The notes under the pieces were generated by a model. That model did no database searches. It saw nothing but the letters and a program-made list of their open reading frames with translations, and had not been told where the DNA came from. From Halocafeteria seosinensis (Eukaryota): a stretch of DNA of 35,105 bases. Shown here piece after piece: positions 4,702 to 29,322 of this stretch. The stretch's first letter is position 1, and every line of letters begins with the position of its first letter. Location of the stretch: NCBI GenBank assembly GCA_001687465.1, contig LVLI01000087.1:1-35105 (forward strand). The letters are read 5' to 3'. The position numbers and the translations under genes are program-made.

Positions 4702-4890
4702 AGGATTAACCCCAGACTCACAGGGATAACTCCCCAGCTCCCTATGGAACTAGGAAAAAATCCCCCATTATAATTTTTTAAATACAAATGTTACTTTATA
4801 TTTAAAATTACATTCAAAAGTTAATGTCAAAATGTTACTTTAAAAATTNCACTTAAAATTNCATTTCAAAATTATGTTCTGAAACGTTAC
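4702..4890 (+). repeat. Left terminal inverted repeat
   Basis: AGGATTAACCCCAGACTCACAGGGATAACTCCCCAGCTCCC...CTGAAACGTTAC matches the reverse complement of 29118-29322 with some mismatches and indels; starts with AG. Confidence 0.93.
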
Positions 4891-5447
4891 TTTTTATATG
4901 TATGAAATTTATTTTCTCTAAATATTGAAGCTGAATAATCTGGGTTTCTTTTTCTTTCTCTATCAATTTCTTTAAGACGACGTATACAGTCTTGTTTTTC
5001 TTCTTCCTTTCTTTCTTCCTCCCGTTCCCTCCTTTCTCTTTCCTCTGCTTCTTTTCTTTTGATAGGGTCATCCCTTTCTGGAACAAATCTAACTTCATCC
5101 CCACCGATTCTATTTTGAAAATTCACCCGAACCGCTTTTGGATAAGTTCCACTAGCTGAATTTATAGGTGGTGAATATAAAACTAAATTATGTAGTTCAA
5201 TGTTTTTTTCTGTATTAAGTTTTCGTACAACATATTTTTCATTATCAACCATAGGATGAAAGCTATAAAAAATTACTCGTCTTAAATCTTCTGTTCTACT
5301 GTTTATGCTTACTGATGGAACGTTATTATTATGATTTATTTTTTGATACCGACCAGATTTATGGTTGTAAACATCACCTTTTTCAGATACTGAATAATTT
5401 GATTGATTTCTTACGGGAGCCCAACGAACACCATTATACCTTTTCAT
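4887..5447 (-). CDS. NUMOD4-domain protein, degenerate HNH endonuclease-like
   Basis: WAPVRNQSNYSVSEKGDVYNHKSGRY resembles the NUMOD4 motif of the two intact HNH genes, but the HNH catalytic residues are not evident. Charged coiled C-terminus. Confidence 0.6.
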   Translation of the reverse strand: MKRYNGVRWAPVRNQSNYSVSEKGDVYNHKSGRYQKINHNNNVPSVSINSRTEDLRRVIFYSFHPMVDNEKYVVRKLNTEKNIELHNLVLYSPPINSASGTYPKAVRVNFQNRIGGDEVRFVPERDDPIKRKEAEERERREREEERKEEEKQDCIRRLKEIDRERKRNPDYSASIFRENKFHTYKK

Positions 5448-5508
5448 TTTTACTATAACATTATAAGTTAAATTAGCTCTAAATTAATTTTCAAACGATT
5501 GTTACAAA

Positions 5509-6495
5509 TTATTTAGCTGACGGTTGAATATCTCGAACCTGCTTCTCTGGTATCCATTGATTGAATTTTTCCGGAAATCCTACCCACTTTACTAAAACAA
5601 ACTTTTTTCCATTTATCTTTTTACGTTGTAAGACTTTTTCAACTAAAAATTCTTGCTGTTGTTTGGTTTTTTGTAGTTCCGGTTCGTGAAAGGTACCTTC
5701 AACGCGTTGACCGTCTAAATCTTGTAGCTTATAAGTTATGGGGTCTGTTCGCTTGACTTCTGCGATTTCAAATATTTCTTCTGACCACTTCACCCGAGTT
5801 CCTTTCTCAAAAATATTCTTCTTTTTTATTTTGCGTACTCTATCACCTTCTTTAAACTTAGGTTTCCTCTTTTTCTTCTTCTCAAGGTCTTCGGGAAAAA
5901 TATTAATAGGGTTAGCTCTGGCTTTTCCTTTGTAAACGTCTTTCGGTTTTGCTCCGACGGTAGAATGAACTGTAGTATTGTACTCTTTCACTAGTTCTGG
6001 CAAAACATCTAACCAATTAAAGTCTCGTTGATTTGAAAATTCTTCTTCCATTTTCTCCCGAAGAGTACGATTAAAGCGTTCTACAATAGAATTTTTGGTG
6101 CGTCCGGTTGTATTGTAGATTTGCATTCCTTCATCTTCCAGAAAATTGAGAACTTGTTGATTAAAAAATTCACTTCCTTTATCTACCCAAATAAAATTAG
6201 GTTTCTGCTTGACTTTCTTTAATAATTGCGTTAAGACTTCTACCATCTCAGAACCTTGTTTTGTTTTTAAGGGTAGAGCGAAAGCAAACCGACTATGAAG
6301 CTCAATAGCGTTCAGAATAAATCGGAAACCTCGGTTATCATCTTTCACATCTGACATATCTAGCAAATCTAAAGCAATGATATTATGTAAGCCTCCGGAG
6401 ATGACTTTTCGTCTCGGGAATTTACGTTTTACGCCTTTGAATAGTTCCTTGGTTAATTGACGAACTTCTGGATCGGCTTGTCTACGACTAGACAT
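5509..6495 (-). CDS. Retroviral-like (rve) DDE integrase with C-terminal chromodomain (Polinton-type)
   Basis: Catalytic triad in ALDLLDM, WVDKGSEF and SIVERFNRTL. Chromodomain FLVEKVL..KKFVLVKWVGFPEKFNQWIPE. Confidence 0.96.
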   Translation of the reverse strand: MSSRRQADPEVRQLTKELFKGVKRKFPRRKVISGGLHNIIALDLLDMSDVKDDNRGFRFILNAIELHSRFAFALPLKTKQGSEMVEVLTQLLKKVKQKPNFIWVDKGSEFFNQQVLNFLEDEGMQIYNTTGRTKNSIVERFNRTLREKMEEEFSNQRDFNWLDVLPELVKEYNTTVHSTVGAKPKDVYKGKARANPINIFPEDLEKKKKRKPKFKEGDRVRKIKKKNIFEKGTRVKWSEEIFEIAEVKRTDPITYKLQDLDGQRVEGTFHEPELQKTKQQQEFLVEKVLQRKKINGKKFVLVKWVGFPEKFNQWIPEKQVRDIQPSAK

Positions 6496-6512
6496 TTTTC
6501 TATATTGATAAC

Positions 6513-9500
6513 TTAGTTCTCAAGAGTCTTATAATGTCCTAGAGCTAAGGTATCAATACCGTTCCCAAGAACGTAGCGTTTATCATCCAGAGGAGATAGA
6601 GCAGATTTTACAGCTTGATGGGTATAGACGCTATGGTGGAAACTGCTGATTTGCTTAAACTTAACCGTCTTCTGAATTTCTTCAGCAGTTGTACCGAAAA
6701 TACTACGCACATAATCTTGGTGTTTGATTTGCTTGCGTACAACAGCTTTCTTAACACCCTTAGCCTTTTTCTCGTTCTCCTCGTCCCGAGTTAAGAAACT
6801 ATAAAGCTTAGCTCTCAAACCACAGAACTCAGACATAGGAACACTATTCGTTTCATCTTTCATAAACCCGACTTTCTTTTTATTCTGAGTCGAATAAAGG
6901 AAGTGGTCTTTGGGATAATCTGAAAAATCAAAATGTGAATTTTTATAGGGTTCAATTTCCTTGTATAAGTCTTTGGTCTGAATATGATAACAGAATGAAT
7001 CGGTATCACTAAAACAGAGATTGGCATTATTTCCATACATTGGTTTAATAAAATTATAGTGAAAGTCCTGCATCAGCAATTTGCTTAAATCTAAAATAGA
7101 GCTGCCGATTAAGATAGGTTTGTCAAATTTGATGGTTTCTTTATTCATATCCAGTAGAACCAGTTTATCATTTTCAATAATATAACTCTGCTTATAGGTT
7201 GGTTTCTTGGTTAGCTTTTGATGGTATTCTTCACTGGTACAGACCTTAATATTGCTATAACCGCGAACATTTTCCATAGTCTTACCGAAAATACTGTTGT
7301 TCATCAGTTTAAATAAGTTTTTCTCAAAATCATCTTTTGCCTTCATTCTCAGTTGGCTATTAAGTTCAATGTAATCTTTCATAAAGGGTTCCTGACGAAA
7401 GCCGAGAACGCTATAGACTTTTTCTAACTCCATACCTTGCTCAAGATAGAATTGGAGGTTACGGATATGAACAACATATTTATCCTTATCATACAAATTA
7501 GGAATAAGTTTATTATCATTTCCATTCTTTTTATCACCTAAGATTTCGGCTATATTTTTCATATGCGGGCTATATTCACCTTTAGTATTTTCGGGAGCCA
7601 GAGGAAAATCATTATGTAGATCGTGAAGTTCTTTCGGATATCTCAGCTTAACTTTTAAGAAATACCCTCGTGAAGAATTCTTATCATAGTTTAGGATAAA
7701 GTTTTTATTAAATTCTTCTGGATTCTCCCAAGCATACCCTCCAGCAGGTAGCTTTTGAACCATACCCCAACCATAGAGATTATTCGCATCCACATAATAA
7801 AGATAACTTGTATTTTCTTCTGGCTTATAGGTTTCTGGGATATANGGGTTATTGGCTTTCGCATATCGTTTCGTGCTAATCATACTGACACCTCCACGTT
7901 TACCGTCTTCGGCAAACGTCAACATTTCGTATTGACCTTCGTGAAACAGTTCTATATTGTATTTACCGCTAATGTTGAGCAAGAAAGCGTCCCAAGATAA
8001 AGCGGGTGCGGTCAGATACCAGCAAGGGTCTAACTGATAATTTTTCATACATAGATTACGGAATTCTTCAAAAACATCAGCCAGTAGTAAAGTATCAGTC
8101 ATTAAGTAGAGTTCGTGATAATCTTTGAAGGTTTGACAACCAAATCTATCCCAAACTTTTTGTGCGTGTTCATAATCTTCATCACTGATTTCTTCTTCTT
8201 CTAAATCATTGTAAAAAGCACTCTTAGGAGGCAAAGCGTTATAGTTCATTCTTTTGGGATCACCGTTTGACCAAGTATAAGGGTAGACACCTTTTTGTCG
8301 AAGGAGCTCAATATTTTCCTGACTATACTCAGAGAAATAAGAATTAAAGTTAGCAAATAAGCTTTCGTCGTTTTTAGTTTTTAAGTTGTCCACTAAATTC
8401 TTGATAGAGGAACCCATAAAAGCGAAAGAATCAACAAATCTAAAGCGTCCGAGACCAAAGGTTATAAATTTTTCGACATTTTGAGGAAGTGCGTTAAATT
8501 TTCGGTTATTTGTTTTAGAATAATCAACTAACTGCTTAATTAATAGATGACTGTCATACCCTTTCAGATTATGAAAGATAACCGGAATAATAAACCTATC
8601 TTTATACTTTTTGTTTAAATTACAACCTGCGTGAGTAGCTCCTCTATACTGTCCGGTCAAGTGACAGTGATCACGATGTGGATTTCTTTCAAGCGGCTTA
8701 TGGCAAATGTAGCAGTGGGTAGCATTAAAGAAATGTTCTTCATCTTCTTCACTCATTTGTAGAGGGACATAACGATTAAAGACGATATCTTTTAGTTCTT
8801 TTTCTTTTTCAACCAACCAATCAATATATTTAATAATACAGTCTCCTTCAGTATCAGAGTAGAAAACCACCTGTTCATTAAATTCTGGAAGTATAGAGAC
8901 AAGGACAGCGTTAATACTGTTTGGGATGTGTTCGTGTGTCAGAATGTTTTGTGGGTTGTCACCTTTTTGTTTATGACACTCCACTAAACTGCTTTCAATA
9001 TCAGAATAAATAGCAAAAGGAAGTCTTAATTGTTTGTGAAAATTAGAGAACTTTAAATAATGTTCACCCTTTTTAGGCATAATAGGCCTAGCGCTTGGAT
9101 TTTTCAGACAACTATCTTTTTGATGTTCTTGAAGAGCAGTATTGTTTTCAAACGACTGGAGACAATTACTGCAGTAAACTCTAGCATGATTACCGTTAGC
9201 ACCTAGCAGAGAACTAAGAGATTTAATAGAGCAATAATGATAAATGTCTTTAACTTCATCTTCATAGAGTAAAAGATTAACGTGTTGTCGGTCTTGATGT
9301 TTAGTAATTCTCACTGGGTTGAGAGTAGATAAACGAAGGAAGTCTTCTTCAAGTCTTTCACGTGTGCGCATATTTTTTTCAGTTTGTTCCTCTAATACTG
9401 GAGTAAAGACATTGATAGACAACCAAGGATTTAAAATTTCTAATCGTTCAATATCTCTTGGACACTGAAGAGGAAAGTTTACCTTAAACTTTTTATCAGA

Positions 9501-10670
9501 AAGGATAACTTGGTTTTCAAACTTTTTATAGACAGAGGCTTTAGAACGATGTCCTTTACTGACTTGTTCGCAAAAGAGCGACATTAAGATGGAGTATAAT
9601 CCACATTTTCCGTCCTTAGCTCCGGTAGGATTTAACAATCCACGATTCTTTTTCAAACATTGAGGAAGAGCCACATCATCACCATCACGCCCCTTCATAG
9701 GAGTGAAAGCAATTAAATTTATTTGAAGGTTATCTACCCATTCAAGAACCCATTGCGAGCCACCATCAAGTAATTCATCTTCTATTAAAAGAATGGTATT
9801 TTCAAGCTCACGAACAGTATCTTCAACCTCATTTGCGTTAAAAATAGGTTTAGCATTTTCTTTTCTAGAAGTGTTCAATAGAAAAGGTGTTCCACTTGAG
9901 GTTGTTGGACTTGCCACATTATAAAAGAAGGCATCTAGAGCCATTTGAATTTTTATATTTTGTTTCTTTTCTTGAAACTTTTTAACTTCATCAACGACTT
10001 TTGAGCGAACCACGTTAAAGAATTTTTTAGAGTCACCGATTAAAGGTTCAGTCGTAACTTTTAGACCTAAGTCAACATTTTTAAATCGTTTTCGCTCTTC
10101 AACTTTTACAGTATAATCGGTTTCTGCTAATTCTTGTTGAGCCTGAACTCTTTGAGCTATATTAGCTCTATCTTGTTGACGAAGAATAATTCTAGTTAAT
10201 TCACGGCGCAAATTCTCGGTTTTTTCAGTTAACTTAACTTTGCGGAGGATTTGGTTAGGGTTTTCTTGCTGAAGTTTGTTTAGCTCACGACTGTTAGAGG
10301 GTCTAGGGAATTGTCTAAGACGATTTTGTAGAGCTTGACGACTTAAACCCTGAACACCAGTTCCTTGTCGATTCAAGGCACGATTAACCGAAAATTTTCG
10401 GATAATCTCAGACCGAATATCTTCTGAAGGAGCAGTCAGACGGACACGGCTTAATCCTCTATTTTTCAATTCATTCAAACGATTTTTAAGCTCATTACGG
10501 TTTGCTTTCTTTATTGTGTCAATAAACTTCTCGGGCACCCCGTGGAGAAGAGGCTTCTTCTTGTTCAGTTCCTGACGAAGTTTATTCTTTTTGGAATTGA
10601 GGTTGATTCGGGTGAGACCTAGCTGTTTTAATTCTTTTAATTGATTTTGTAATTCTTTAAACTCATTCAT
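6513..10670 (-). CDS. polB: Protein-primed family B DNA polymerase with N-terminal extension, OTU-like region and endonuclease VII-like insert
   Basis: Exo motifs SDIES, FHNLKGYDSH, YLMTDTLLLAD. Pol motifs YVDANNLYG, KLMNNSIFGK, FSDTDS. Insert CYIC..HRDHCHLTGQYRGATHAGCN. First ATG at 10670 (track start 10682 is TTG). Confidence 0.97.
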   Translation of the reverse strand: MNEFKELQNQLKELKQLGLTRINLNSKKNKLRQELNKKKPLLHGVPEKFIDTIKKANRNELKNRLNELKNRGLSRVRLTAPSEDIRSEIIRKFSVNRALNRQGTGVQGLSRQALQNRLRQFPRPSNSRELNKLQQENPNQILRKVKLTEKTENLRRELTRIILRQQDRANIAQRVQAQQELAETDYTVKVEERKRFKNVDLGLKVTTEPLIGDSKKFFNVVRSKVVDEVKKFQEKKQNIKIQMALDAFFYNVASPTTSSGTPFLLNTSRKENAKPIFNANEVEDTVRELENTILLIEDELLDGGSQWVLEWVDNLQINLIAFTPMKGRDGDDVALPQCLKKNRGLLNPTGAKDGKCGLYSILMSLFCEQVSKGHRSKASVYKKFENQVILSDKKFKVNFPLQCPRDIERLEILNPWLSINVFTPVLEEQTEKNMRTRERLEEDFLRLSTLNPVRITKHQDRQHVNLLLYEDEVKDIYHYCSIKSLSSLLGANGNHARVYCSNCLQSFENNTALQEHQKDSCLKNPSARPIMPKKGEHYLKFSNFHKQLRLPFAIYSDIESSLVECHKQKGDNPQNILTHEHIPNSINAVLVSILPEFNEQVVFYSDTEGDCIIKYIDWLVEKEKELKDIVFNRYVPLQMSEEDEEHFFNATHCYICHKPLERNPHRDHCHLTGQYRGATHAGCNLNKKYKDRFIIPVIFHNLKGYDSHLLIKQLVDYSKTNNRKFNALPQNVEKFITFGLGRFRFVDSFAFMGSSIKNLVDNLKTKNDESLFANFNSYFSEYSQENIELLRQKGVYPYTWSNGDPKRMNYNALPPKSAFYNDLEEEEISDEDYEHAQKVWDRFGCQTFKDYHELYLMTDTLLLADVFEEFRNLCMKNYQLDPCWYLTAPALSWDAFLLNISGKYNIELFHEGQYEMLTFAEDGKRGGVSMISTKRYAKANNXYIPETYKPEENTSYLYYVDANNLYGWGMVQKLPAGGYAWENPEEFNKNFILNYDKNSSRGYFLKVKLRYPKELHDLHNDFPLAPENTKGEYSPHMKNIAEILGDKKNGNDNKLIPNLYDKDKYVVHIRNLQFYLEQGMELEKVYSVLGFRQEPFMKDYIELNSQLRMKAKDDFEKNLFKLMNNSIFGKTMENVRGYSNIKVCTSEEYHQKLTKKPTYKQSYIIENDKLVLLDMNKETIKFDKPILIGSSILDLSKLLMQDFHYNFIKPMYGNNANLCFSDTDSFCYHIQTKDLYKEIEPYKNSHFDFSDYPKDHFLYSTQNKKKVGFMKDETNSVPMSEFCGLRAKLYSFLTRDEENEKKAKGVKKAVVRKQIKHQDYVRSIFGTTAEEIQKTVKFKQISSFHHSVYTHQAVKSALSPLDDKRYVLGNGIDTLALGHYKTLEN

Positions 10671-10756: not shown

Positions 10757-10891
10757 TCAGTTCTTAAATTGGCTTGCCACTTGACCTATTTTATGAACAG
10801 TGTTTAGCGCGCCTCCAACTTTCTTTACAGTATTGCTTAGATTTCCGTTACTTGTTGGTTTTTGTGGGAGAAACTTTTGATGAAGACTCAT
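10757..10891 (-). CDS. Small 44-aa protein (not in ORF track)
   Basis: MSLHQKFLPQKPTSNGNLSNTVKKVGGALNTVHKIGQVASQFKN, preceded by the element-typical TATAGATAAAATG context. Confidence 0.55.
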   Translation of the reverse strand: MSLHQKFLPQKPTSNGNLSNTVKKVGGALNTVHKIGQVASQFKN

Positions 10892-10957: not shown

Positions 10958-11788
10958 ATGTCCCGCGCTTCTGAATCCAATAAAGTACGATTGTTAGTAA
11001 ATAGCGAACTAGATAGAAGACCTGAAGACTCTCGCGACAATTTTAAAGTTTTCTTGTCCGAACCCTTGGAGCACCACCGCAATACCATCAAAATGGCATT
11101 ACGAAAAATTTCAGTGCCGAATTTGGCGTATACCTTCCATAAAAATGAATCTACCCTATATTACATTACCGATGTTGGAGGTGGGAGCGAAACTTTAAAA
11201 TCAATCGTTATTGACACTGGACGAAAGTTTAATTCTATTTCTGATTTATCAGACCACTTGGAGAATTTGTTTAACAATAATGGAGATAGTATATTAGTAG
11301 ATGTAGACCAAGACACTGATAAGTTAGAAATAACCAACGATACCAGTAGTGATATTCGTATTGTTTCAGGTTTTATATATGAAACTAATGTTCTAAATAC
11401 CCAACTTACCGATCACGCCAATTCTAAGCTTGGATTTCATCAGGATTTAACAAACGAGGTTTTATCTCCCTCAGAGTCGGTTATTGGTTCAGGAATCCCT
11501 AAATTAATCTCAACCGTTGTCTATCACATAGCCTCTACTCAGCTTATGTCAAATAGAATCACGAGAACACCTAACCCTAACACAAAACCCCACGTTTTGG
11601 CGACACTTTTGAACACAGTTTCCTTCGGTGATATTAATGCGGTTAGACTAGGAGAATCAGAGTTGTTTATACTTGAATACGAGAATTCCATTGATAGTTT
11701 TGATATAAAAATTTTAGACGACCAATTCCGAGAAGTTAGCCTAAATGGTGGCGAGATTAATTTAGAATTCGAGTTGTGGTGGTCATAA
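10958..11788 (+). CDS. Minor capsid protein (penton, single jelly roll)
   Basis: N-terminal LLVNS...NFKVFLSEPL...MALRKISVPN and C-terminal IDSFDIKILDDQFREVSLNGGEINLEFEL match the penton pattern of Polintons, PLVs and virophages. Confidence 0.85.
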   Translation: MSRASESNKVRLLVNSELDRRPEDSRDNFKVFLSEPLEHHRNTIKMALRKISVPNLAYTFHKNESTLYYITDVGGGSETLKSIVIDTGRKFNSISDLSDHLENLFNNNGDSILVDVDQDTDKLEITNDTSSDIRIVSGFIYETNVLNTQLTDHANSKLGFHQDLTNEVLSPSESVIGSGIPKLISTVVYHIASTQLMSNRITRTPNPNTKPHVLATLLNTVSFGDINAVRLGESELFILEYENSIDSFDIKILDDQFREVSLNGGEINLEFELWWS

Positions 11789-11841: not shown

Positions 11842-12270
11842 TTAGTCACTCACGTACTGACTCTCATCAATTTCCTCCACATTTTCTAGGTTAGAGTCAT
11901 CCAAGATTTCAGAACTTTTAATTTTTTCTCCTTCTAGCTTATTTGGGTCTTCAATATTTTTAAGACCATAAAGACAATAACGAATTATATCCTTTTTTTC
12001 TCCCTCTTCCATTTGTTTAAAGAGATACCCTAAATAGTCTTGTTTATTTTGTTTCAACCAGCGGAAAGAATAACCTTTATGTTTCCCATACGTAATTTTC
12101 CTGAAATCAATGTCATAGAACCGACGGAAGAATTCTTTGAATAACTCAAGGTTTTGAATTTTAAAATTATCATCGGCTTTAGTTAGGAGGAAATAGATAT
12201 AATTAGGNTTAGTGTTAATGACTTTATCAACGGTATCGTTTGAATGTTTTTGACCAATGTTAATTTTCAT
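11842..12270 (-). CDS. Hypothetical protein with two 'GK(H/Y)KG..F....Y' type motifs (DUF3820/ExoX C-terminal-like)
   Basis: INIGQKHSN...PNYIYFL and ITYGKHKGYSFRWLKQNKQDYLGYL. Confidence 0.55.
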   Translation of the reverse strand: MKINIGQKHSNDTVDKVINTXPNYIYFLLTKADDNFKIQNLELFKEFFRRFYDIDFRKITYGKHKGYSFRWLKQNKQDYLGYLFKQMEEGEKKDIIRYCLYGLKNIEDPNKLEGEKIKSSEILDDSNLENVEEIDESQYVSD

Positions 12271-12334
12271 TATTTTTGATATAATAATAAGAGTTTAATT
12301 TTCTCTAAGCTGAAAATTAAACGATTATGAATAA

Positions 12335-12826
12335 TTATGACATAAAATAGTTTAAGGGATTAACGTTATTGTCTTTTAAATTTTTTTCATTTATTAGTTC
12401 TCGTTGAATTTCTTCACGAATTGAGGAAATAGTATCACCGAAACTATCAATTATTTTACGAACTTTTTTATTTTCTAGAGTTTCTTTTTTACTTGTAAAA
12501 TGCGTAAAAAGACCTTGAGGAGTAAAATAGCAAATAGAAGGGAAGTTAGGTTCAAAAAATAATTGAATATCACCTAAGAAACTAATAAAATTATTTATAC
12601 TCATTTCTTCAATCTCTTTTTCAGGTTTTCTTATTTCCTCTATTTTTTCACTCCATTCTTCTAAATGATCTTCAGAGTGAAACTGATAAGCAAATATTAA
12701 TAAATTTTTGATATAGTGTGGTGGGTTGAAGACTATAATATTATATTCTTGACTATAAACGAAACCAGCGTTCATTAAAAGTTTATCTATGATTTTTTCG
12801 CTTTGTTTAATCTCTTTGTTATTCAT
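12335..12826 (-). CDS. Hypothetical protein
   Basis: 163-aa ORF in AT-rich DNA with TATAGAAAAAATG start context. Confidence 0.7.
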   Translation of the reverse strand: MNNKEIKQSEKIIDKLLMNAGFVYSQEYNIIVFNPPHYIKNLLIFAYQFHSEDHLEEWSEKIEEIRKPEKEIEEMSINNFISFLGDIQLFFEPNFPSICYFTPQGLFTHFTSKKETLENKKVRKIIDSFGDTISSIREEIQRELINEKNLKDNNVNPLNYFMS

Positions 12827-13054: not shown

Positions 13055-13150
13055 TTCTTTCTATAATATATAGTAACTAAAAAGCTCTAAGTAAAAAATC
13101 TATGATTTTTCTATAATTAATCTATAGAAAAAATTCTTAAACTCAAACTT

Positions 13151-18028: not shown

Positions 18029-18061
18029 TCATTAAAATTTATCTTTACATTATAAAGATAA

Positions 18062-20921: not shown

Positions 20922-21551
20922 ATGACTTGTATCAATTGTGAGTCTGGTAATCTTGATTGGGTAGGGTATGAAATGATTTGCTGTAATTGCGGTTCTGTTC
21001 AACCAGATAATTATATAATTGAATTAGAAGAACTACCAAGTCTCTCACCCTCGCCGATTGAGCGGGCTATCGATTTTATCTCAACTCACAACTTTAGCAA
21101 ATATCTGAAAAGCTTAAGTGGAATTGAGACCAAGAACATTTCCGATAAATTTTTGGATGAGGTCAACGAATTCTTGTTTAGAAATAATCTAGATACTAAC
21201 CACGAAAACATCCTTAAATTTTTAAAAAGCAAACGATTATATTCGTTATATTCACATACTTCTGTCATTCATCATAAATTGACGGGGGAACCACAATACT
21301 ATATCCCTCCAGAGTTACGGGATGAATTAGTTGGAATGTTCAAGCGGATAGAAATTATTTGGGGTTATGTCAGACCTAGAAACCGGATTTATTTACCAAA
21401 TTATAGCTTTTTCTTAAGAAAGATGCTCTTCTTGAAAAATTACGACGATCTGGCTTATAAATTTACATCCGTCAGTTACAAGTCAGCTAAGAAAGTTAAA
21501 GAAACTGAGGATATTTGGTTACGAATTTGTCAAGAATTGAACTGGAGTTAA
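20922..21551 (+). CDS. VLTF3: VLTF3-like (poxvirus A2-type) late transcription factor
   Basis: N-terminal Zn ribbon CINC...CCNCG, then ILKFLK..LYSLYSH..IHHKLTG, RNRIYLPNYSFFLRKML and KSAKKVKETEDIWLRICQELNW. Confidence 0.9.
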   Translation: MTCINCESGNLDWVGYEMICCNCGSVQPDNYIIELEELPSLSPSPIERAIDFISTHNFSKYLKSLSGIETKNISDKFLDEVNEFLFRNNLDTNHENILKFLKSKRLYSLYSHTSVIHHKLTGEPQYYIPPELRDELVGMFKRIEIIWGYVRPRNRIYLPNYSFFLRKMLFLKNYDDLAYKFTSVSYKSAKKVKETEDIWLRICQELNWS

Positions 21552-21599: not shown

Positions 21600-22127
21600 A
21601 TGGATGTTATCTATGAACAACAAGAATACTTTAAAACTATTCCTCACTTTCCTGAGTATCAAGTTTCTACTTATGGTAGAGTTTATAGTACAAAATCAGG
21701 TAGAATGTTAACACTTGGAAATAATCGTGGTTATTTTGAAGTTAAGTTTCACTATTCTGGAAAAAATTATATTAGAGGGGTACATCGTCTAGTTGGACAA
21801 ACTTTTTATGGACTTGAAAAATTGGAAGGAAAGCAAATTGATCACAAAAACAATATTAGAAATGATAATCGTCTATCAAACTTGCGAATTTGTACTAGAC
21901 CGGAAAATTTATATAATACTGGAAAGAGAAGTGATAATTCTTCTGGCTACAAAGGAGTAGGATACCGAAAAGGACGTAAATATCAGAAAAACCCTTGGCA
22001 CGCAAGAATAATTTTTAATGGTAAAAGACATATTCTAGGTTATTTTCCAACTGCTGAACGAGCCTATGAAGCTTATAAGGAAAAAGCTAAAGAAGTTCAC
22101 GGAGAATTTTATCACTATAATGATTAG
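21600..22127 (+). CDS. NUMOD4-HNH-AP2 homing endonuclease
   Basis: FPEYQVSTYGRVYS, VHRLVG, IDHKNNIRNDNRLSNLR, SGYKGV..WHARI..LGYFPTAERAYEAY. Confidence 0.92.
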   Translation: MDVIYEQQEYFKTIPHFPEYQVSTYGRVYSTKSGRMLTLGNNRGYFEVKFHYSGKNYIRGVHRLVGQTFYGLEKLEGKQIDHKNNIRNDNRLSNLRICTRPENLYNTGKRSDNSSGYKGVGYRKGRKYQKNPWHARIIFNGKRHILGYFPTAERAYEAYKEKAKEVHGEFYHYND

Positions 22128-22161: not shown

Positions 22162-23964
22162 ATGAGTGGAACAATACGATTACATCACCAAACATCTGGT
22201 GGCTTGGCTGGGACAACAAAGGTTCACAAAGGGCTTAACGTAAGTAACGGAAGATTAAGTGTAGATTCTGGTTCCGGTCTTGCTTTTAACAATGACAATA
22301 AACTCGTTAATGAATGGTATAATGTTTCAGACGGTTCTAACCTTGATATGAACTCTAACCGAATCACTAATTTGGCAAATCCAACCGGTTCAGGTGATGC
22401 TACTACTAAGAGTTATATTGATAATCAAGTTAGCGTTCCTCAGCTAAGGAAAGGTGCTAGAGCCTACTATAGTTTTGATGATAGTAGTGAGCCTTATGCT
22501 GATTCAGTGGGACAATATGATGGACGAGCAGTAGGTGGAATAACTATTACAAACAGCGGGAAAATTGGAAGTGCTGTTGAATTTGATGGAAATCAATCTT
22601 ATGTTGAACTCCCAAACAATGCGTTTGACGTAGCAGGAAGCGACTTTTCCTTTTCCTTTTGGGCTTATGTAAAACTTACAAGTTCAGCTCAAATTCTTAT
22701 GGTTAGTCAAACGGATCAAGACAACAGATTGTTAATTACACAAGAAAGCGGTGATTATATCCGAATATTTACTAGTTCAGGAGGGACAGAGAAAGAAGTT
22801 CAATCGTCAACTTTATCAGGAAATACGTGGTATCATTTTGTTATCGTTGGACAAGGTACAACAGGTACAATTTATGTAAACGGAACACAAGACGCAACGG
22901 GAACAATATTTAATGATGCTACAATGACTGGTTCTACTTCGTTGGTTGGTATTGATAATCAAAACGCATTGTCCAACGGCTACCGCATAGATAAATTCGG
23001 TTTGTGGAATCGTGTTTTAACTGGAGATGAAATTGATTTTCTATATAATGGAGGAAATGGAACAAATAATTGGCAAGATACCTATTTAGCCACCAAGGGT
23101 GAAGTCACACAATTACGTCAATATACCAACGCATTGGCGGGACTTCCACAACTGAGACGTTCAGCGAGAGCCTATTATAGTTTTGATGGAAATGACCCTT
23201 ATGCTGATTCGTTTGGGACATATGATGGAACAAATAATGGGGTGAGTCAGAGCAATACAGCCAAAATTGGAAAATCTATTGAATTTAGCGCAGATGGTCA
23301 ATATGTAGACATCGGTCAAGCTCTAAAATTTGGAACGGGAGACTTTGCTGTTAGTTGTTGGTTTTATCCAACACAAACATCCAGCAGTAGCCACGACATA
23401 ATGTGGGGAACTGATGAAACAGGAGATGGCTTTAGGGCATTTGGTCTTTTTAATGATGATCAAACAATTGAATTCTTTACAACAGATGGTTCGACGGCAA
23501 AAAAAGTCATTACAAACACAACTGTAGCCCTAAATACGTGGCATTTTATTACGATGACACGTTCGGGTGGAACAGGTCAGATATATATTAACGGTTCGCT
23601 AGAAACGTTCGGAACAGTACGTAGCGATAATATTGCAAGTTCAGATATTACTTATATTGGAATCCCGGGCTCAAGTCATTCACCCCGTGGATTTATTGAT
23701 GAATTCGGTGCGTGGTCTCGAGTTCTATCGCAAGATGAAATCGTATATCTCTACAATAATGGTAACGGCACGAATGATTTTCAGAGTTTTGATTGGTATT
23801 CTCGTCCCGCACAAAGCAATGTTGATATGAATGGTAATTCAATAACCAATGGACAGGATATCACAACCAAACAACTCTTCCTAACCAATCTTCCGACGAG
23901 TGACCCTCTAGTTGCTGGTCAAGTTTGGAATAACAGTGGAGTATTGAACATTTCAAGCGGTTAA
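22162..23964 (+). CDS. Fibre / receptor-binding protein with two LamG (concanavalin A-like) domains
   Basis: Two repeats of AYYSFD...KIG.(A/S)(V/I)EF...NTW(Y/H)..F...IY(V/I)NG...ID.FG.W.RVL...EI..LYN.GNG, flanked by LDMNSNRITNLANPT..DATTKSYID fibre motifs. Confidence 0.85.
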   Translation: MSGTIRLHHQTSGGLAGTTKVHKGLNVSNGRLSVDSGSGLAFNNDNKLVNEWYNVSDGSNLDMNSNRITNLANPTGSGDATTKSYIDNQVSVPQLRKGARAYYSFDDSSEPYADSVGQYDGRAVGGITITNSGKIGSAVEFDGNQSYVELPNNAFDVAGSDFSFSFWAYVKLTSSAQILMVSQTDQDNRLLITQESGDYIRIFTSSGGTEKEVQSSTLSGNTWYHFVIVGQGTTGTIYVNGTQDATGTIFNDATMTGSTSLVGIDNQNALSNGYRIDKFGLWNRVLTGDEIDFLYNGGNGTNNWQDTYLATKGEVTQLRQYTNALAGLPQLRRSARAYYSFDGNDPYADSFGTYDGTNNGVSQSNTAKIGKSIEFSADGQYVDIGQALKFGTGDFAVSCWFYPTQTSSSSHDIMWGTDETGDGFRAFGLFNDDQTIEFFTTDGSTAKKVITNTTVALNTWHFITMTRSGGTGQIYINGSLETFGTVRSDNIASSDITYIGIPGSSHSPRGFIDEFGAWSRVLSQDEIVYLYNNGNGTNDFQSFDWYSRPAQSNVDMNGNSITNGQDITTKQLFLTNLPTSDPLVAGQVWNNSGVLNISSG

Positions 23965-23978
23965 TTATAAATTTATCT

Positions 23979-24049
23979 AGTTACCGCGTTGCCTCGAACC
24001 CTGTAACAGCTTCTACAAGCGAGTTAAACCACGTAACAGCTACAAGCTA
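23979..24049 (+). repeat. Structured intergenic element, divergent copy
   Basis: GTTACCGCGTT-GCCTCG-AACCCTGTAAC hairpin with the same loop, then CTACAAGC, AAACCACG and GCTACAAGC motifs. Confidence 0.75.
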
Positions 24050-24082
24050 TTATTAATAAAATTATTATTATTAATATAGGAA

Positions 24083-25600
24083 ATGAGTTATATTTTCAGT
24101 AACTTAGGAGATTCTAAATTTTTGCCCGCTCAAAAAGGGTTTATTCTGGAAACAGAAGACGAAGACCATCATCCTCCCGATCGTTGGTATGAACATCCCG
24201 CCCAAGATAACGTTGATTTAAACTCAAATAAAATTACTAATCTAGGTGCTCCCTCCGGTGATGATGATGCGGTTAATCTTGTACATTTAGAAAGCAATTA
24301 TTTTTCGTCGAACGAGGCTAACAATCTTTTTCTTAGTGTTGACGGAAGCAATAGTATGAACGCGGGTCTTGATTTGAACTCTAACAAAATTGTTAATTTG
24401 AATGACCCTACTGAGCTAAACGATGCTGTAAATCTAAATCATTTAAGTAGTAATTATTACCAATCTTCAACCGTTGACAGTGATTTTTTACAAGTTAGTG
24501 GGGGTAATTCTATGAACTCGAATCTTGATTTGAGTTCGAACAAGGTTGTCAACTTATCAAATCCGGTTGATTCTACCGATGGGGTTAACCTATCTCATTT
24601 ACAAACCAATTACTACACATCTTCCGAGACCGATAACCAATTTCTTCAAGTTGATGGGTCTAACGCTATGACCAACAATTTAGATTTAAATTCTAATAAA
24701 ATTGTTAACTTATCTAATCCGGTTAATTCTAACGATGCCGTTAATCTGGATTATTTGACAGTTAATTATTATTCCTCTTCTGCCACTGATAACCGCTTTC
24801 TTCAAGTAGACGGCTCCAATTCAATGGAGAACAACTTAAATTTAAACTCTAATAAAATTGTTAATTTAGCTAATCCAGTTAATTCGGGTGATGCCGTCAA
24901 TAAAACTGAAGCTGACAGCACTTATTTAAAAATCAACGGTAGCACTCCTATGGCTGGAAACCTAAATATGGATACTAACCAAATTACTAATATGGGTAAT
25001 CCTACTGATTCAAACGATGGGGTTAACAAGACTTTCGCTGAATCAAACTATCTCTTGTTAGATGGTACTAATTCTATGAATGCTAATCTCGACGTAGGTC
25101 TGAACAAAGTAGTAGGAGTGAATAACCCCTCCAATAATAAAGATGGGGTAAATCTTCAGTATTTGACTACCAATACCAAAAATAAAGTTCAACACTTTAA
25201 AAATTCTGGAAGTGTGTTTTTGGACGGTAGTGATAATGAAGAAGAAATTGTTGACGACTTTTTCCTAGATGCTAATCAAACTTATATCGTGTTTGCTAAA
25301 TTTTGGACTTGGGACGTACCAAATAATCTAGGAGGTGGTGGAAGTCGTCTAGAACATTATCGTGATTTAAACATTATTGATCCATACGGCGGGTTTTGGT
25401 TAGATGACGACCGATTTAGTCATTTTGAAACCAATGGGTTATTATCTTTCTACGGTCATTATACTACTACAATTACCACTGATGGTACCGGCGCTGAGAC
25501 TTGGAAAGTTCGATTAGTAAACCTTTCCAGTAATAGTTTTACTGCGACTCTACAGCACGAAATGGAATTTTTACCAATTGGAAGTGTAAGTGAAATATAA
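24083..25600 (+). CDS. Fibre protein with ~52-aa tandem repeats, paralog 1
   Basis: Repeated FLQVDGSNSM..NLDLNSNKIVNL.NPV.S.DAVNL..L..NYY.SS units and a distinct C-terminal head. Confidence 0.85.
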   Translation: MSYIFSNLGDSKFLPAQKGFILETEDEDHHPPDRWYEHPAQDNVDLNSNKITNLGAPSGDDDAVNLVHLESNYFSSNEANNLFLSVDGSNSMNAGLDLNSNKIVNLNDPTELNDAVNLNHLSSNYYQSSTVDSDFLQVSGGNSMNSNLDLSSNKVVNLSNPVDSTDGVNLSHLQTNYYTSSETDNQFLQVDGSNAMTNNLDLNSNKIVNLSNPVNSNDAVNLDYLTVNYYSSSATDNRFLQVDGSNSMENNLNLNSNKIVNLANPVNSGDAVNKTEADSTYLKINGSTPMAGNLNMDTNQITNMGNPTDSNDGVNKTFAESNYLLLDGTNSMNANLDVGLNKVVGVNNPSNNKDGVNLQYLTTNTKNKVQHFKNSGSVFLDGSDNEEEIVDDFFLDANQTYIVFAKFWTWDVPNNLGGGGSRLEHYRDLNIIDPYGGFWLDDDRFSHFETNGLLSFYGHYTTTITTDGTGAETWKVRLVNLSSNSFTATLQHEMEFLPIGSVSEI

Positions 25601-25601
25601 A

Positions 25602-25675
25602 AGCTCAATGACGCCTCGGTCATTGTAGCGTCAGACTACAAGCTTAAAACCACGAAAAGCTACAAGCGAGATTAA
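25602..25675 (+). repeat. Structured intergenic element, copy 3
   Basis: Near-identical to copy 1; starts just after the stop at 25600. Confidence 0.9.
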
Positions 25676-25714
25676 GCATTTTTTCTTTATAAAAGAAAGC
25701 ATCTATTATAAAGA

Positions 25715-27253
25715 ATGTCATATATTTCAAGTAACGTTTCATCTAATATTAGTCTAGGTAGAAAAGGTTATATTTTTGAGCTTGAAGATGAAGATGTTCA
25801 TCCTCCAGAAGAATGGTATAAACATCCCGCTGGGGAGAATATAGATTTAGCTGGAAATCGTTTAATAAATTTAAGCACAGCTAGTTTAGGTGATGAAGCT
25901 GTCACATTAAATTATCTTCAGAGTAATTTCGACACCGATTTAAATTTAGAAGAAAAATTTCTTCAGTTGGACGGAAATAATAGCTTAAACGCTAATCTTG
26001 ATATGAATTCAAACAAAATCCTTAATTTAGGTAATCCGGTTGATTCCGGAGATGGGGTTAATCTGGGTTATTTACAGAGCAATTACTATACATCGTCAAC
26101 CGTTGACAGTGATTTTCTACAGGTTAGCGGGGGTAATTCTATGAGTAGTAGTCTTGATTTGAGTTCGAACAAGGTTGTCAACCTAGCTACTCCAGTTGAT
26201 TCTGGAGATGGGATTAATCTAGACTATTTGACGGTTAATTATTATTCCTCTACGGGTGCTGATAATCGGTTCCTTCGGGTTGATGGAACGAATCCAATGG
26301 AAAATAACTTAAATTTGAATTCTAATAAGATTACTGGTTTAGCTAATCCAATTGATTCTGTGGATGGGGTGAGTCTAAATTATTTGGAAAACAACTACTA
26401 CTCTTCCACTGAGGCAGATAATCAATTCATTCAAGTTGACGGGGCTAATGCTATGAACAATAATTTAGATTTAGCAAATAATAGAATCGTTGATTTAGCA
26501 GATCCAACAGACTTAAACGATATAGCCACAAAAAATTATCTAGAGGCTGATTTTGTTAATTTGTCGGGGGATACAATGGCAAATAATTTAATTTTAGGTG
26601 GGAATAGAATTACGAGTGTGTCCGGTTCCTCAGACCTAGCTACTTTAGACTATGGAAATCTAACTTTTCCTCGGTTGGATGGGACAAATACTTTTGGAGC
26701 TAACCTTTCAGTCGGTGATAATAAAATCGTCAATTTGGGTAATGCTAGTAATGACAGAGATTTAGTTAATCTGGAGACGTTCAACAATCAAACAACAAGT
26801 TTTCCACGAGAAATTTCTCACTTCAGTTTTGAAGAAACGGATGTAACCATAAACAACGGCACCACATACGATTCATCTGTTACTAAAACCTTGTCTAAAA
26901 ATACAGATTATTTAGTATTTGTTCGCATATTTTCAGTTGGTGTAAATTCGGGCGTTAGTAGCGAATTTTATATGTTACATAAAATTAATGGTAATTCAAC
27001 TGACCCGTGGAGTTTTACAGGGGCTTATAAAGGAATCGATCTTTCAAAAAAAGCCACTTCCTATTTTGAAAGCGCTAGCGGAATTCATTTCACAGGGTAT
27101 TACTACACAACCCTAAGCGTTGGAACAAGCAATAACGTTTCTTTCAATCTTCAAATTGTCAACGATTCCGGAAGTAATCAAACAATTAATAGGATAACTC
27201 AAAATATTCATCTGCTAAAAATTGACGGGGTTGAAGAAATTTCATTAGCTTAA
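25715..27253 (+). CDS. Fibre protein with ~52-aa tandem repeats, paralog 2
   Basis: Shares the N-terminus (MSYI.SN..KG.I.E.EDED.HPP..WY.HPA) and shaft repeats with 24083-25600; divergent C-terminal head. Confidence 0.85.
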   Translation: MSYISSNVSSNISLGRKGYIFELEDEDVHPPEEWYKHPAGENIDLAGNRLINLSTASLGDEAVTLNYLQSNFDTDLNLEEKFLQLDGNNSLNANLDMNSNKILNLGNPVDSGDGVNLGYLQSNYYTSSTVDSDFLQVSGGNSMSSSLDLSSNKVVNLATPVDSGDGINLDYLTVNYYSSTGADNRFLRVDGTNPMENNLNLNSNKITGLANPIDSVDGVSLNYLENNYYSSTEADNQFIQVDGANAMNNNLDLANNRIVDLADPTDLNDIATKNYLEADFVNLSGDTMANNLILGGNRITSVSGSSDLATLDYGNLTFPRLDGTNTFGANLSVGDNKIVNLGNASNDRDLVNLETFNNQTTSFPREISHFSFEETDVTINNGTTYDSSVTKTLSKNTDYLVFVRIFSVGVNSGVSSEFYMLHKINGNSTDPWSFTGAYKGIDLSKKATSYFESASGIHFTGYYYTTLSVGTSNNVSFNLQIVNDSGSNQTINRITQNIHLLKIDGVEEISLA

Positions 27254-27276: not shown

Positions 27277-27435
27277 ATGTTAGAAATAATTATAGGTGTG
27301 ATTTCATTCGTGGGAGGTAGTGTTAGTGGTGTAGTCGCAAAGCTCATAAGGGACAAGCTATTAAAGTCAGATTGTGAGTTAAATGTTGGAATCCATAGCG
27401 GAGAGCGTGAAGAAGAAGAAACAAATAATAATTAG
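27277..27435 (+). CDS. Small 52-aa membrane protein (not in ORF track)
   Basis: MLEIIIGVISFVGGSVSGVVAKLIRDKLLKSDCELNVGIHSGEREEEETNNN with TATAAAAGAAATG start context. Confidence 0.65.
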   Translation: MLEIIIGVISFVGGSVSGVVAKLIRDKLLKSDCELNVGIHSGEREEEETNNN

Positions 27436-27493
27436 TTAAAATTATTTAAATTTGGTATTAGAAATTATAGTATTATATAATATTATAATAAAA

Positions 27494-28021
27494 ATGCCAA
27501 AACTTCCAAAAGATTTTTCAAAATCTGTCATTTACAAATTATGTTGTTTAGACCCCGAAGTTAAAGAGGTTTATGTGGGAAGCACAACTAATTTTAAACA
27601 AAGAAAAAGTCTACATAAAAGTCGTTGTACAAATCCTAATGTTAATGGTTATAATTGTTTTGTTTATGAATTTATTCGTGAAAACGGTGGTTGGGAAAAC
27701 TGGCAAATGATTATGGTTGAGAATTACCCGTGTGAATCAAAACTAGAATTGGAAAAAAGAGAACGTGAAATTATAGAAGAGTTAGAAGCTAGTTTGAATA
27801 AAAGAATTCCTACTAGAACTAAGGAAGAATATTATGAAGAATATTATGAAAAAAATTTTGATTATTTAAAACAACAACGTAAAGAATATTATGAAAAAAA
27901 TTTTGATTATTTAAAACAACAAAAATCAGAAAAAATTCAGTGTGAATATTGTGGAAAATATCATAGAAAAGATAATAAATTAAGACATCAAAGAAGTCAA
28001 AAATGTAAGAAACACCAATAA
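27494..28021 (+). CDS. GIY-YIG endonuclease with C-terminal zinc finger
   Basis: SVIYKL...VYVGST...RKSLHKSRC, LEKRERE, CEYCGK..HQRSQKC. First ATG 27494. Internal 45-bp-period duplication at 27839/27884. Confidence 0.9.
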   Translation: MPKLPKDFSKSVIYKLCCLDPEVKEVYVGSTTNFKQRKSLHKSRCTNPNVNGYNCFVYEFIRENGGWENWQMIMVENYPCESKLELEKREREIIEELEASLNKRIPTRTKEEYYEEYYEKNFDYLKQQRKEYYEKNFDYLKQQKSEKIQCEYCGKYHRKDNKLRHQRSQKCKKHQ

Positions 28022-28066
28022 TTTTTTAGCTTAAAACTTTTTCTATATCATTTTAATATAGAAAAA

Positions 28067-28303
28067 ATGGAACAAGTAGAGCAAAAAATTTTAGAACTGG
28101 AAGAATTAATGAAGGAACANTTCCAGCACGATTTTTATAATTTGGAGTTCGCGGACTTTCAAGTATATGATCGTGTAAATGATCGTTTGTGGCAAACGTG
28201 GTCTAGCCTTGATAATATCAGGTTTATGATAGACCGCTATCAAGATTTTCATAATGTAATTAGTCAAAATGAGCTACCGACCACAGAACGTTTGGAATGT
28301 TAA
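28067..28303 (+). CDS. Hypothetical protein
   Basis: 78-aa ORF with palindromic TATAGAAAAAATG start context. Confidence 0.65.
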   Translation: MEQVEQKILELEELMKEXFQHDFYNLEFADFQVYDRVNDRLWQTWSSLDNIRFMIDRYQDFHNVISQNELPTTERLEC

Positions 28304-28351
28304 TAAAAAATTTGACTTAAAGAATTTTTTTCTATAGAATAATATAGAAAA

Positions 28352-28681
28352 ATGAAAGTAATAGGATGTGTTTCTATACACCGTACTAACTACACTATAA
28401 ACATAAAAACAACCTATAACGAGGGTTGTATAAAAACTGTAGACGTTCCAGTACCTCATAGTTTTGGAGTTCAAAGAACTGAAGAAAAACGAGAAAAATG
28501 GCAAAAATTTCGTAAAGAAAAGTTAGATCAATATGTAACAGATATTAAAAACGATATTTATTTTCAATTTTTAAATGAAGACGATAAACCAACAATTGAT
28601 AAACTTGAAATTGAAAATTTTTTATCACGAGAAATTGAACTTGATTCACCTTTAAAAGAAATAGCTGAGTTTAAAAATTAA
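28352..28681 (+). CDS. Hypothetical protein
   Basis: 109-aa ORF with the same start context. Confidence 0.65.
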   Translation: MKVIGCVSIHRTNYTINIKTTYNEGCIKTVDVPVPHSFGVQRTEEKREKWQKFRKEKLDQYVTDIKNDIYFQFLNEDDKPTIDKLEIENFLSREIELDSPLKEIAEFKN

Positions 28682-28720: not shown

Positions 28721-28792
28721 AGCTGTGTAGCTCAACGGTTAGAGCAGTCCTTTGTGGCAGGACAGATGTGGTTTCGACTACCACCACAGCTA
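28721..28792 (+). tRNA. tRNA-His (GUG)
   Basis: Full cloverleaf: acceptor AGCTGTG/CACAGCT, D stem GCTC/GAGC with GG in loop, anticodon stem GTCCT/AGGAC with loop TT-GTG-GC, T stem GTGGT/ACCAC with loop TTCGACT, discriminator A. Confidence 0.92.
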
Positions 28793-28834
28793 TAAAAAAT
28801 TCAGGTTAAAGAAAATTTATTAATTATATATAAA

Positions 28835-29110
28835 ATGGGAGTTGAAATTCATAAATGTGAAAGATGTGATGGAGCTTACACAGAATTTGACGTTCCAAGT
28901 GTTTTAATTAAATTATCAGATAAAGAAGATGATGAATTTACTTTTTCTTCATTATGTTATGATTGCCACGACTTTTTCCTTAAAAGTGAAATGCTTGAAT
29001 TATATCCTATTTTCGATCCTGAATGTGATTTTAATTACAAACTAAAAGAAGGTTTTAAACTTGTTAAAAAGCTGAAAACAATAGAATATTATGATATTGA
29101 AAAAGTCTAA
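28835..29110 (+). CDS. Small zinc-binding protein
   Basis: CERC and CYDC pairs in a 91-aa ORF ending just before the right TIR. Confidence 0.7.
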   Translation: MGVEIHKCERCDGAYTEFDVPSVLIKLSDKEDDEFTFSSLCYDCHDFFLKSEMLELYPIFDPECDFNYKLKEGFKLVKKLKTIEYYDIEKV

Positions 29111-29117
29111 TTTTTAT

Positions 29118-29322
29118 GTAACGTTTCAGTTCATAAATTTTAAAGTGAAATTTTTAACATTAACTTTTAAGTGAAATTTTTAAAGTAACATTTTGAATTA
29201 ACTTTTGAATGTAATTTTAAATATAAAGTAACATTTGTATTTAAAAAATTATAATGGGGAGTTTTCTCCTAGTTCTGTAGGGAGCTGGGGAGTTATCCCT
29301 GTGAGTCTGGGGTTTGAATCCT
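29118..29322 (-). repeat. Right terminal inverted repeat
   Basis: Ends ...GGGAGCTGGGGAGTTATCCCTGTGAGTCTGGGGTTTGAATCCT, the reverse complement of the left TIR. Confidence 0.93.

What the first reader, a model, noticed from the sequence alone, without database searches (positions are those of the whole stretch)
4702..29322. Near-intact endogenous Polinton-class virus with an unusual gene mix
Seen: TIRs, integrase, pPolB, penton, MCP candidate and ATPase, nearly all with open frames. Known: rve-chromodomain integrase plus pPolB is the Polinton core; Tlr6F and lipase occur in PLVs and virophages; VLTF3 and tRNAs are typical of giant nucleocytoviruses. Inference: this combination in 24.6 kb may represent an undescribed lineage between Polintons and nucleocytoviruses, or a satellite of a giant virus.
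Basis: partly seen in the sequence, partly recalled or inferred. Interest (0 to 1): 0.88.

Follow-up and report, generated by a model that had tools for sequence, protein, structure and literature searches.

The report
Multicopy endogenous Polinton-like virus, rare capsid
This is a 24.6-kb Polinton-like virus lying among transposon debris in a eukaryote's DNA, one of many diverged sibling copies, with a rare capsid lineage and signals suggesting it likely borrows a giant virus's transcription machinery; each of its 'unusual' genes is already known from such viruses.

Summary
The element is real: TIRs, rve-chromodomain integrase, group-2-type pPolB, double-jelly-roll MCP (fold match), A32 ATPase, VLTF3, lipase, three fibres and tRNA-His. 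The penton is unconfirmed. 'Near-intact' needs qualifying. The right end most likely lies at 29355, not 29322. The left TIR then lacks its outer 33 bp and abuts a broken hAT transposase, and there is no TSD. The Tlr6F-like frame has an in-frame stop. One sequencing run holds 1088 contigs (88-100% alike) on 13 kb of it, so it belongs to a multi-copy family; two other runs with the same organism label lack it. The 'bridge to nucleocytoviruses' reading is not supported: VLTF3, tRNA-His, lipase, Tlr6F and fibres are each published in PLVs, and the MCP has no NCLDV-capsid Pfam hit. What is new: an unplaced capsid lineage (closest 54-57%, unlabelled metagenomes); TATA just before 26 of 26 starts and AT hairpins in 17 of 25 spacers, as in giant-virus-dependent virophages; and an unexplained 85-nt repeat after structural genes that some siblings appear to lack. 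Verdict: new variant of a known kind, probably a satellite.

The parts
4702..4891 (.). Left TIR, lacking about 33 bp at its outer end; abuts a hAT transposase fragment
   Evidence: the outer 33 bp of the right TIR occur nowhere else in the window (next best 20 of 33)
4887..5447 (-). NUMOD4/HNH-like protein, decayed nuclease part
   Evidence: weak hits
5509..6495 (-). rve integrase with C-terminal chromodomain; D43/D105/E139 read from the sequence
   Evidence: rve 5e-8, Chromo 6e-7; 32-40% to integrases beside related pPolBs; motif positions
6513..10670 (-). Protein-primed DNA polymerase B, 1385 aa, group-2 type with EndoVII/HNH insert; one X from an N
   Evidence: (Exo I-III, Pol A-C motifs)
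10757..10891 (-). 44-aa ORF, unknown
10958..11788 (+). Likely penton (minor capsid), 276 aa; assignment rests on recalled motifs and size only
   Evidence: no hit; model pLDDT 32, fold search empty
11842..12826 (-). Two unknown ORFs (142 and 163 aa)
12878..13345 (-). Tandem pair of small C2H2-like zinc-finger ORFs (58 and 64 aa)
   Evidence: D5; weak
13410..14231 (-). Class 3 lipase (GHSLG motif)
14300..15286 (-). 328-aa Q/P-rich ORF holding an in-frame sense copy of the 85-nt repeat (15008-15087)
15387..16368 (+). 93-aa ORF and NUMOD4-HNH-AP2 endonuclease (15856-16368)
16437..17912 (+). Double-jelly-roll major capsid protein, 491 aa, unplaced lineage
17948..18030 (+). 85-nt repeat, copy after MCP (others 19555-19637, 23974-24057, 25596-25677): hairpin with GCCTCG loop plus two CTACAAGC
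18062..19558 (+). 498-aa ORF, unknown, probably structural by position
   Evidence: no hit
19676..20518 (+). A32 packaging ATPase; tail longer than in its homologue
   Evidence: one-base length variants at 20434-20436 in sibling contigs
20455..20874 (+). Tlr6F-like frame with in-frame TAG at 20521-20523
20922..21551 (+). VLTF3-like late transcription factor with N-terminal CxxC-CxxC
   Evidence: E 1.7e-19; no homologue found
21600..22127 (+). NUMOD4-HNH-AP2 endonuclease
22162..27253 (+). Three fibre genes (600 aa with two LamG domains; 505 aa; 512 aa) with 156-bp internal repeats
27277..28681 (+). 52-aa ORF, GIY-YIG nuclease (27494-28021), ORFs of 78 and 109 aa
28721..28792 (+). tRNA-His(GTG); G at -1 encoded, AT hairpin before it, no T-run after it
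28835..29110 (+). 91-aa ORF with CxxC pairs
29118..29355 (.). Right TIR; inferred true end 29355 (…ACTACT)
29356..31023 (.). Flank: patchwork of bacterial gene fragments (asnB, nuoH, unknown ORF, SMC hinge), Coxiellaceae-like
3818..4701 (-). Flank: broken host hAT transposase, cut off at the left TIR

Best explanation
[quoted passage not shown] Shown: it encodes pPolB, rve integrase, DJR capsid, packaging ATPase, lipase, fibres, VLTF3 and tRNA-His, and no RNA polymerase, capping enzyme or maturation protease was detected. Known from the families: pPolB copies the linear genome from its TIR ends, rve inserts it into host DNA, and A32 packs it into a capsid with fibres and lipase. Inferred: the TATA a few bases before each start acts as a viral initiator and the AT hairpins as mimivirus-type 3'-end signals, so a helper's RNA polymerase would express the genes; the element's VLTF3 would steer or compete for that polymerase. 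This assembled copy is probably defective or mosaic at its left end. Odds: about 0.9 for PLV identity, about 0.5 for the satellite step.
For: Gene set. Family: 1088 contigs of run X1 on 13.3 kb (354/285/340/109 at 99+/95-99/90-95/under 90% alike); runs X2 and X3 give 1 and 2 contigs but hold the host repeat to the right. TATA at -4 to -16 in 26 of 26 ORFs against 8.9 +/- 2.4 in 2000 base shuffles; this is too near the ATG for a TATA box that acts 25-30 bp before the start of transcription, and like the ASFV late initiator (passages of PMC5294985). Hairpins of 10 bp or more in 17 of 25 spacers against 1.07 +/- 0.96 in 300 shuffles, including a 13-bp one between convergent 3' ends; Sputnik has the mimivirus hairpin signal after 16 genes (PMC6723459). 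Gezel-14T, with lipase, Tlr6F, fibre and GIY-YIG, is helper-dependent.
Against: No helper virus, transcript or virion was seen. The two signals are not independent: the TATA often lies in the 3' arm of the hairpin, and one hairpin lies between divergent starts where no 3' end is expected. Shuffles were mononucleotide and the ORF list hand-picked. TCTA, the mavirus/CroV motif, is in only 8 of 26. RNA-polymerase-less autonomous viruses also carry VLTF3 (Mriyaviruses; chloroviruses and medusavirus, recalled). Run X1 may be the window's own source. The host is not identified.
Confidence: 0.5

Rival explanations
1. Autonomous, nucleus-replicating temperate PLV: host RNA polymerase II, helped by the viral VLTF3, transcribes it, with no helper.
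For: It has its own pPolB and a late factor; TsV-N1 and Yaravirus are described as lytic without helper; Mriyaviruses carry VLTF3.
Against: TATA sits too close to the ATG for a classical TATA box; hairpins are enriched about 16-fold; the tRNA has no Pol III-type T-run.
Confidence: 0.33
2. A member of the nucleocytovirus-related small viruses (Mriya/Zora/Zephyr groups) or of a new lineage bridging Polintons and NCLDVs.
For: VLTF3 present; Zephyr VC123/126 have VLTF3 (about 30%) and lipase, Zora and VC218 often have rve and are 20-30 kb. 4 of 27 aligned MCP relatives hit Capsid_N, best 8.9e-6. Atlas neighbours of the ATPase homologue are mostly labelled Nucleocytoviricota.
Against: The window's MCP hits no capsid Pfam at E<=0.1 and none of 27 hits Capsid_NCLDV; the 27-sequence profile finds no PDB capsid; best BFVD match is a MELD virus (low-confidence model); no HUH or VLTF2 hit; pPolB and integrase are Polinton-type. 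Atlas labels rest on few records.
Confidence: 0.12
3. The window is an assembly mosaic of several sibling viruses, and this gene order with these flanks does not exist as one molecule.
For: 13 N; imperfect TIRs, no TSD, flanks that do not continue each other; contigs with other letters throughout and skips of single genes; such artefacts are described for protist EVEs (PMC10120064).
Against: Several contigs of 290-505 bp match with no difference; every bin is covered in one run; the gene set is coherent. A mosaic would change details, not the family's nature.
Confidence: 0.3

Closest known systems
Gezel-14T (PgVV) and PgVV-type PLVs, Aquintoviricetes
   Same: DJR MCP, A32, Tlr6F, lipase, fibre, GIY-YIG/homing nucleases; VLTF3 appears in the legend for related Phaeocystis PLVs; helper dependence as proposed here (passages)
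   Different: Gezel uses TVpol and tyrosine recombinase and the AAAATTGA early promoter; this element has pPolB+rve and a TATA motif. MCP kinship not tested against PgVV sequences.
Cryptophyte PLVs of cluster C3 (GKS1/Gossevirus)
   Same: Endogenous, multi-copy, about 22 kb, phage-like fibres, Tlr6F, tRNA-His in 7 elements (passages)
   Different: C3 has a cysteine protease (277 of 305) and cryptophyte PLVs lack lipase; here no protease, lipase and VLTF3 present, no TSD.
Maverick/Polintons with group-2 pPolB (Polintoviricetes), incl. coral polintoviruses with VLTF3
   Same: pPolB with inserted HNH/EndoVII domain next to rve-chromodomain integrase, TIRs, VLTF3 in a subgroup
   Different: No adenain; MCP profile does not match the capsid of a protease-bearing pPolB relative (hhalign probability 0.5%).
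Zephyrvirus VC123/VC126, Zoravirus, Mriyaviruses
   Same: 20-30 kb, VLTF3 and lipase in some Zephyr members, rve in Zora
   Different: Their MCPs are NCLDV-related; no endogenous Zephyr is reported; no HUH or VLTF2 found here; Mriyaviruses lack integrases.
Mavirus/EMALEs and Sputnik (Virophaviricetes)
   Same: Mavirus: pPolB+rve, strain-specific endogenous copies, one motif before all genes; Sputnik: hairpin 3' signals
   Different: No virophage protease; TCTA in only 8 of 26 upstream regions; capsid not shown to be virophage-type.

Membership tests
Polinton-like viruses (broad; Aquintoviricetes-type module) | Double-jelly-roll MCP | tested here: met
   Foldseek top hits are DJR capsids, E 1e-5; VIA Z 10.1, rmsd 14.1, 254 aligned, and Z 9.2, rmsd 3.9, 146 aligned; model pLDDT 47
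Polinton-like viruses (broad; Aquintoviricetes-type module) | A32 packaging ATPase | tested here: met
   Pox_A32 E 2.7e-9
Polinton-like viruses (broad; Aquintoviricetes-type module) | Minor capsid protein (penton) | tested here: inconclusive
   276-aa candidate; no hits, unusable model
Polinton-like viruses (broad; Aquintoviricetes-type module) | Reduced module without cysteine protease; 14-40 kb with TIRs | tested here: met
   24.65 kb; no protease hit
Polinton-like viruses (broad; Aquintoviricetes-type module) | MCP falls in a named cluster (PgVV, TsV, Dino, Trimcap, GKS, PaM1) | not testable with these tools
   Reference HMMs are in a preprint supplement that is closed; all 25 relatives in the tree are unlabelled
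Polintoviricetes (Maverick/Polinton) | pPolB plus rve integrase | tested here: met
Polintoviricetes (Maverick/Polinton) | Adenain-like cysteine protease | tested here: not met
   No Pfam hit in 22 element ORFs; a two-sequence protease profile found nothing in six frames (weak test)
Polintoviricetes (Maverick/Polinton) | 5-6 bp target site duplication | tested here: not met
   None of 5-9 bp for either right end within 3 bp offsets; left terminus is missing
Polintoviricetes (Maverick/Polinton) | Mavpol/Gossevirus-type MCP | tested here: inconclusive
   One comparison only, probability 0.5%
Mriyaviricetes and NCLDV-related PLVs | VLTF3 | tested here: met
Mriyaviricetes and NCLDV-related PLVs | NCLDV-like MCP detectable by NCLDV profiles | tested here: not met
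   Window MCP 0 families; 0 of 27 Capsid_NCLDV, 4 of 27 weak Capsid_N; no PDB capsid by profile
Mriyaviricetes and NCLDV-related PLVs | HUH endonuclease and VLTF2; no integrase (Mriyaviruses) | tested here: not met
   No such hit; rve present
Mriyaviricetes and NCLDV-related PLVs | Mriya48 gene | not testable with these tools
   No profile available; several ORFs remain unknown
Virophaviricetes | Virophage-type MCP and cysteine protease | tested here: not met
   Protease not found; mavirus and Sputnik capsids are not singled out by the fold searches (inconclusive for the MCP alone)
Virophage lifestyle (works like) | Giant-virus-type promoter and hairpin 3' signals | tested here: inconclusive
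   Enriched motif and hairpins, but no helper or transcript ends to match them to

The most novel reading that the evidence does not exclude
An unnamed PLV lineage that parasitises a giant virus, brings its own VLTF3 to redirect the helper's late transcription, and carries a new 85-nt structured element that has spread behind capsid and fibre genes (and in frame into one ORF) and serves as a shuffling site or RNA signal for swapping fibre cassettes among endogenous copies.
Probability: 0.2. Interest if true: 0.75.

Novelty: new variant of a known kind. Interest (0 to 1): 0.45.

Why it matters
It adds a full-length, host-linked genome to a capsid lineage seen so far only as unlabelled metagenomic fragments. 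It also gives a testable case of what VLTF3 does in a small virus without RNA polymerase. A family present in one of three runs of the same organism label fits the idea of strain-specific endogenous antiviral satellites. The 85-nt repeat and the fibre swaps could show how such viruses vary their attachment proteins. It does not change the picture of giant-virus origins.

Tried and rejected
No whole genome is held, so siblings were seen only as short contigs. Peptide-pattern scans of IMG/VR with MCP, MCP alignment, ATPase and whole pPolB, and of JGI metagenomes with the MCP alignment, confirmed no relative; these scans are insensitive. A conserved pPolB piece gave 81 loci: all share pPolB, 13 the integrase, 1 the ATPase by BLAST, none the MCP, penton, lipase or VLTF3; most are short or degraded. 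VLTF3 homologue search was empty, so no VLTF3 or ATPase tree was made. The first collection scan for the 85-nt repeat used a pattern that does not match the window's own copies, and its 5 single hits are treated as chance; the corrected pattern found 0 in IMG/VR and the RNA model none below E 0.7 in 38 of the fetched loci. Rfam gave only the tRNA; single copies fold with z of -0.7 to -2.7; I checked twister and HDV-like layouts by eye from recall and they did not fit. TAG recoding rejected: 5 of 26 ORFs end in TAG. No RNA holder listed. Penton fold failed. The 208-aa flank ORF has no relative in GTDB genomes. Earlier-findings look-ups were empty. A paper search for the AGTAGT terminus found nothing relevant, so that motif is recalled.

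Full report
Observation. The island is 34% GC against 46% in the left flank and is densely coding. Pfam confirms rve+chromodomain, Pox_A32, Pox_VLTF3, Lipase_3, LamG and T7-type fibre repeats, NUMOD4/HNH and GIY-YIG among 28 proteins scanned. ARAGORN and Rfam give one tRNA-His. The polymerase has all six motifs and aligns over 1122-1242 aa at 33-37% with pPolBs that share its EndoVII/HNH insert, a feature described for group-2 Polinton polymerases (10.1101/2023.08.22.554363, passages). The 491-aa ORF is a DJR capsid: on a model of pLDDT 47, the listed top matches in PDB are DJR capsids. The penton stays a guess from recalled motifs.

Ends and integrity. In run X1 one unique contig starts at 29326, 30 bases before 29356, and the depth bins stay above its level until about there. 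With 31-letter words this puts the branch between shared and unique DNA at 29355/29356. The sequence there reads AGTAGT from outside, a Polinton-like end as I recall it. I infer that the right end is 29355. The left TIR lacks these 33 bp and joins a hAT transposase fragment whose remainder is not on the right. No TSD was found. The Tlr6F-like frame has a stop at 20521, and the ATPase tail exceeds its homologue, with one-base length variants in sibling contigs. Such breaks are often assembly artefacts in protist EVEs (PMC10120064, passages). The left junction was not tested with reads.

Family. X1 lays 1088 contigs on 15374-28683, 449 of them under 95% alike; X2 and X3 (same organism label and study) lay 1 and 2, a LamG piece about 90% alike. 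All three hold the repeat right of 31024. X1 may be the window's source, and depth is no copy number. Listed joints skip an HNH gene, the 498-aa ORF, the LamG part, or HNH plus two fibres, which suggests variable accessory content; their short sides (20-40 letters) make them moderate evidence.

Lineage. The MCP has 5 homologues at 54-57% and 25 representatives at E<=0.001; the ten looked up carry no informative name. In a tree of 26 rows (one short row dropped) it sits in a clade of 10 with 100/100 support; no labelled reference is in the tree. It hits no capsid Pfam; 4 of 27 aligned rows hit Capsid_N weakly. The best BFVD match is a MELD virus protein (E 2e-7), closely followed by NCLDV capsids, which does not place it. 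The ATPase has one homologue at 64%; VLTF3 has none found.

Is the gene mix new? No, gene by gene. I read parts 1-4 of 5 of bioRxiv 10.64898/2026.06.19.733378: VLTF3 in about 30% and lipase in about 50% of some Zephyr PLVs; groups linking PLVs to Nucleocytoviricota are already named. Passages show VLTF3 in Tetraselmis and Phaeocystis PLV figure legends, MELD viruses with VLTF and tRNA flags (PMC8502044, section 10), VLTF3 in coral polintoviruses (PMC11131425, section 8), tRNAs in 18 high-quality virophage genomes (PMC6905037) and tRNA-His in 8 cryptophyte PLVs (PMC12220804). Parts 1-3 of 10.64898/2026.10.13.758929 show that replicase-integrase modules move freely between capsid types. Passages of two more papers added nothing. 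I saw no figure or supplement, so I cannot say whether one described element carries VLTF3, tRNA and lipase together; the closed preprint supplements (HMMs, genome tables) bear on this.

Mechanism. No RNA polymerase or capping enzyme was detected, so transcription must come from the host nucleus or a helper. TATA lies 4-16 bases before the ATG in 26 of 26 chosen ORFs (expected 8.9), and 17 of 25 spacers hold a hairpin of 10 bp or more (expected 1.07); 12 of 13 hairpins of 11 bp or more are intergenic though spacers are 11% of the element. The first resembles the ASFV late initiator (PMC5294985), the second the mimivirus signal used by Sputnik (PMC6723459); EMALE types carry type-specific motifs read as helper matches (PMC8547959). 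I therefore favour a satellite of a giant virus (0.5), with VLTF3 acting on the helper's polymerase; this last step is inference only. Against it: the two signals overlap, TCTA is in only 8 of 26, and autonomous small viruses also have VLTF3.

The 85-nt repeat. Five copies, all in the sense of transcription: after MCP, the 498-aa ORF and two fibres, and in frame in the 328-aa ORF. CTACAAGC occurs 9 times against 0.6 expected. Two subtypes keep a hairpin with a GCCTCG loop; 5 of 10 pairs show changes on both sides, but on only two subtypes. Sibling contigs skip each of the four intergenic copies; the letters between are given for three of them. No Rfam family matches and it was not found elsewhere. 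Two paper searches (listings only) showed nothing like it in PLVs. A small selfish repeat is the plainest reading; a recombination or RNA signal is not excluded.

Verdict. A genuine endogenous PLV family with a Polinton-type replicase and integrase and an unplaced capsid; not filed under Polintoviricetes (no protease, no TSD), Mriyaviricetes or Virophaviricetes. New variant of a known kind; interest 0.45.

Noticed in passing
window 29356-31023: Patchwork of four bacterial gene fragments in mixed orientation (asnB, nuoH, unknown 208-aa ORF, SMC hinge); nuoH is 77% identical to a Coxiellaceae MAG. It is one unbroken contig of depth 33 in X1 only, so probably captured symbiont or prey DNA beside the viral end rather than a co-sequenced bacterium.
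   Followed up: partly
window 3818-4701: Broken hAT transposase (Dimer_Tnp_hAT E 7.5e-8) cut by the left TIR.
   Followed up: partly
window 2568-3116: 550-bp MITE-like stretch with perfect 20-bp terminal inverted repeats starting CAGG.
   Followed up: no
window 81-2357: Intronless 758-aa host ORF with an N-terminal hydrophobic segment; no family hit above cut-off.
   Followed up: no
window 31024-35105: High-depth host repeat shared by runs X1-X3, with a 352-aa open frame, a 23-bp tandem array (32706-32845) and a weak Ulp1-like frame.
   Followed up: no
window 28720-28792: tRNA-His has a genome-encoded G at -1, a T-A pair at the base of the T-stem and no T-run after it.
   Followed up: partly
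L086 and L156: Near-identical 9-10 kb Polinton-like contigs with GIY-YIG, pPolB, rve-chromodomain integrase, cysteine protease and an MCP unlike the window's.
   Followed up: partly
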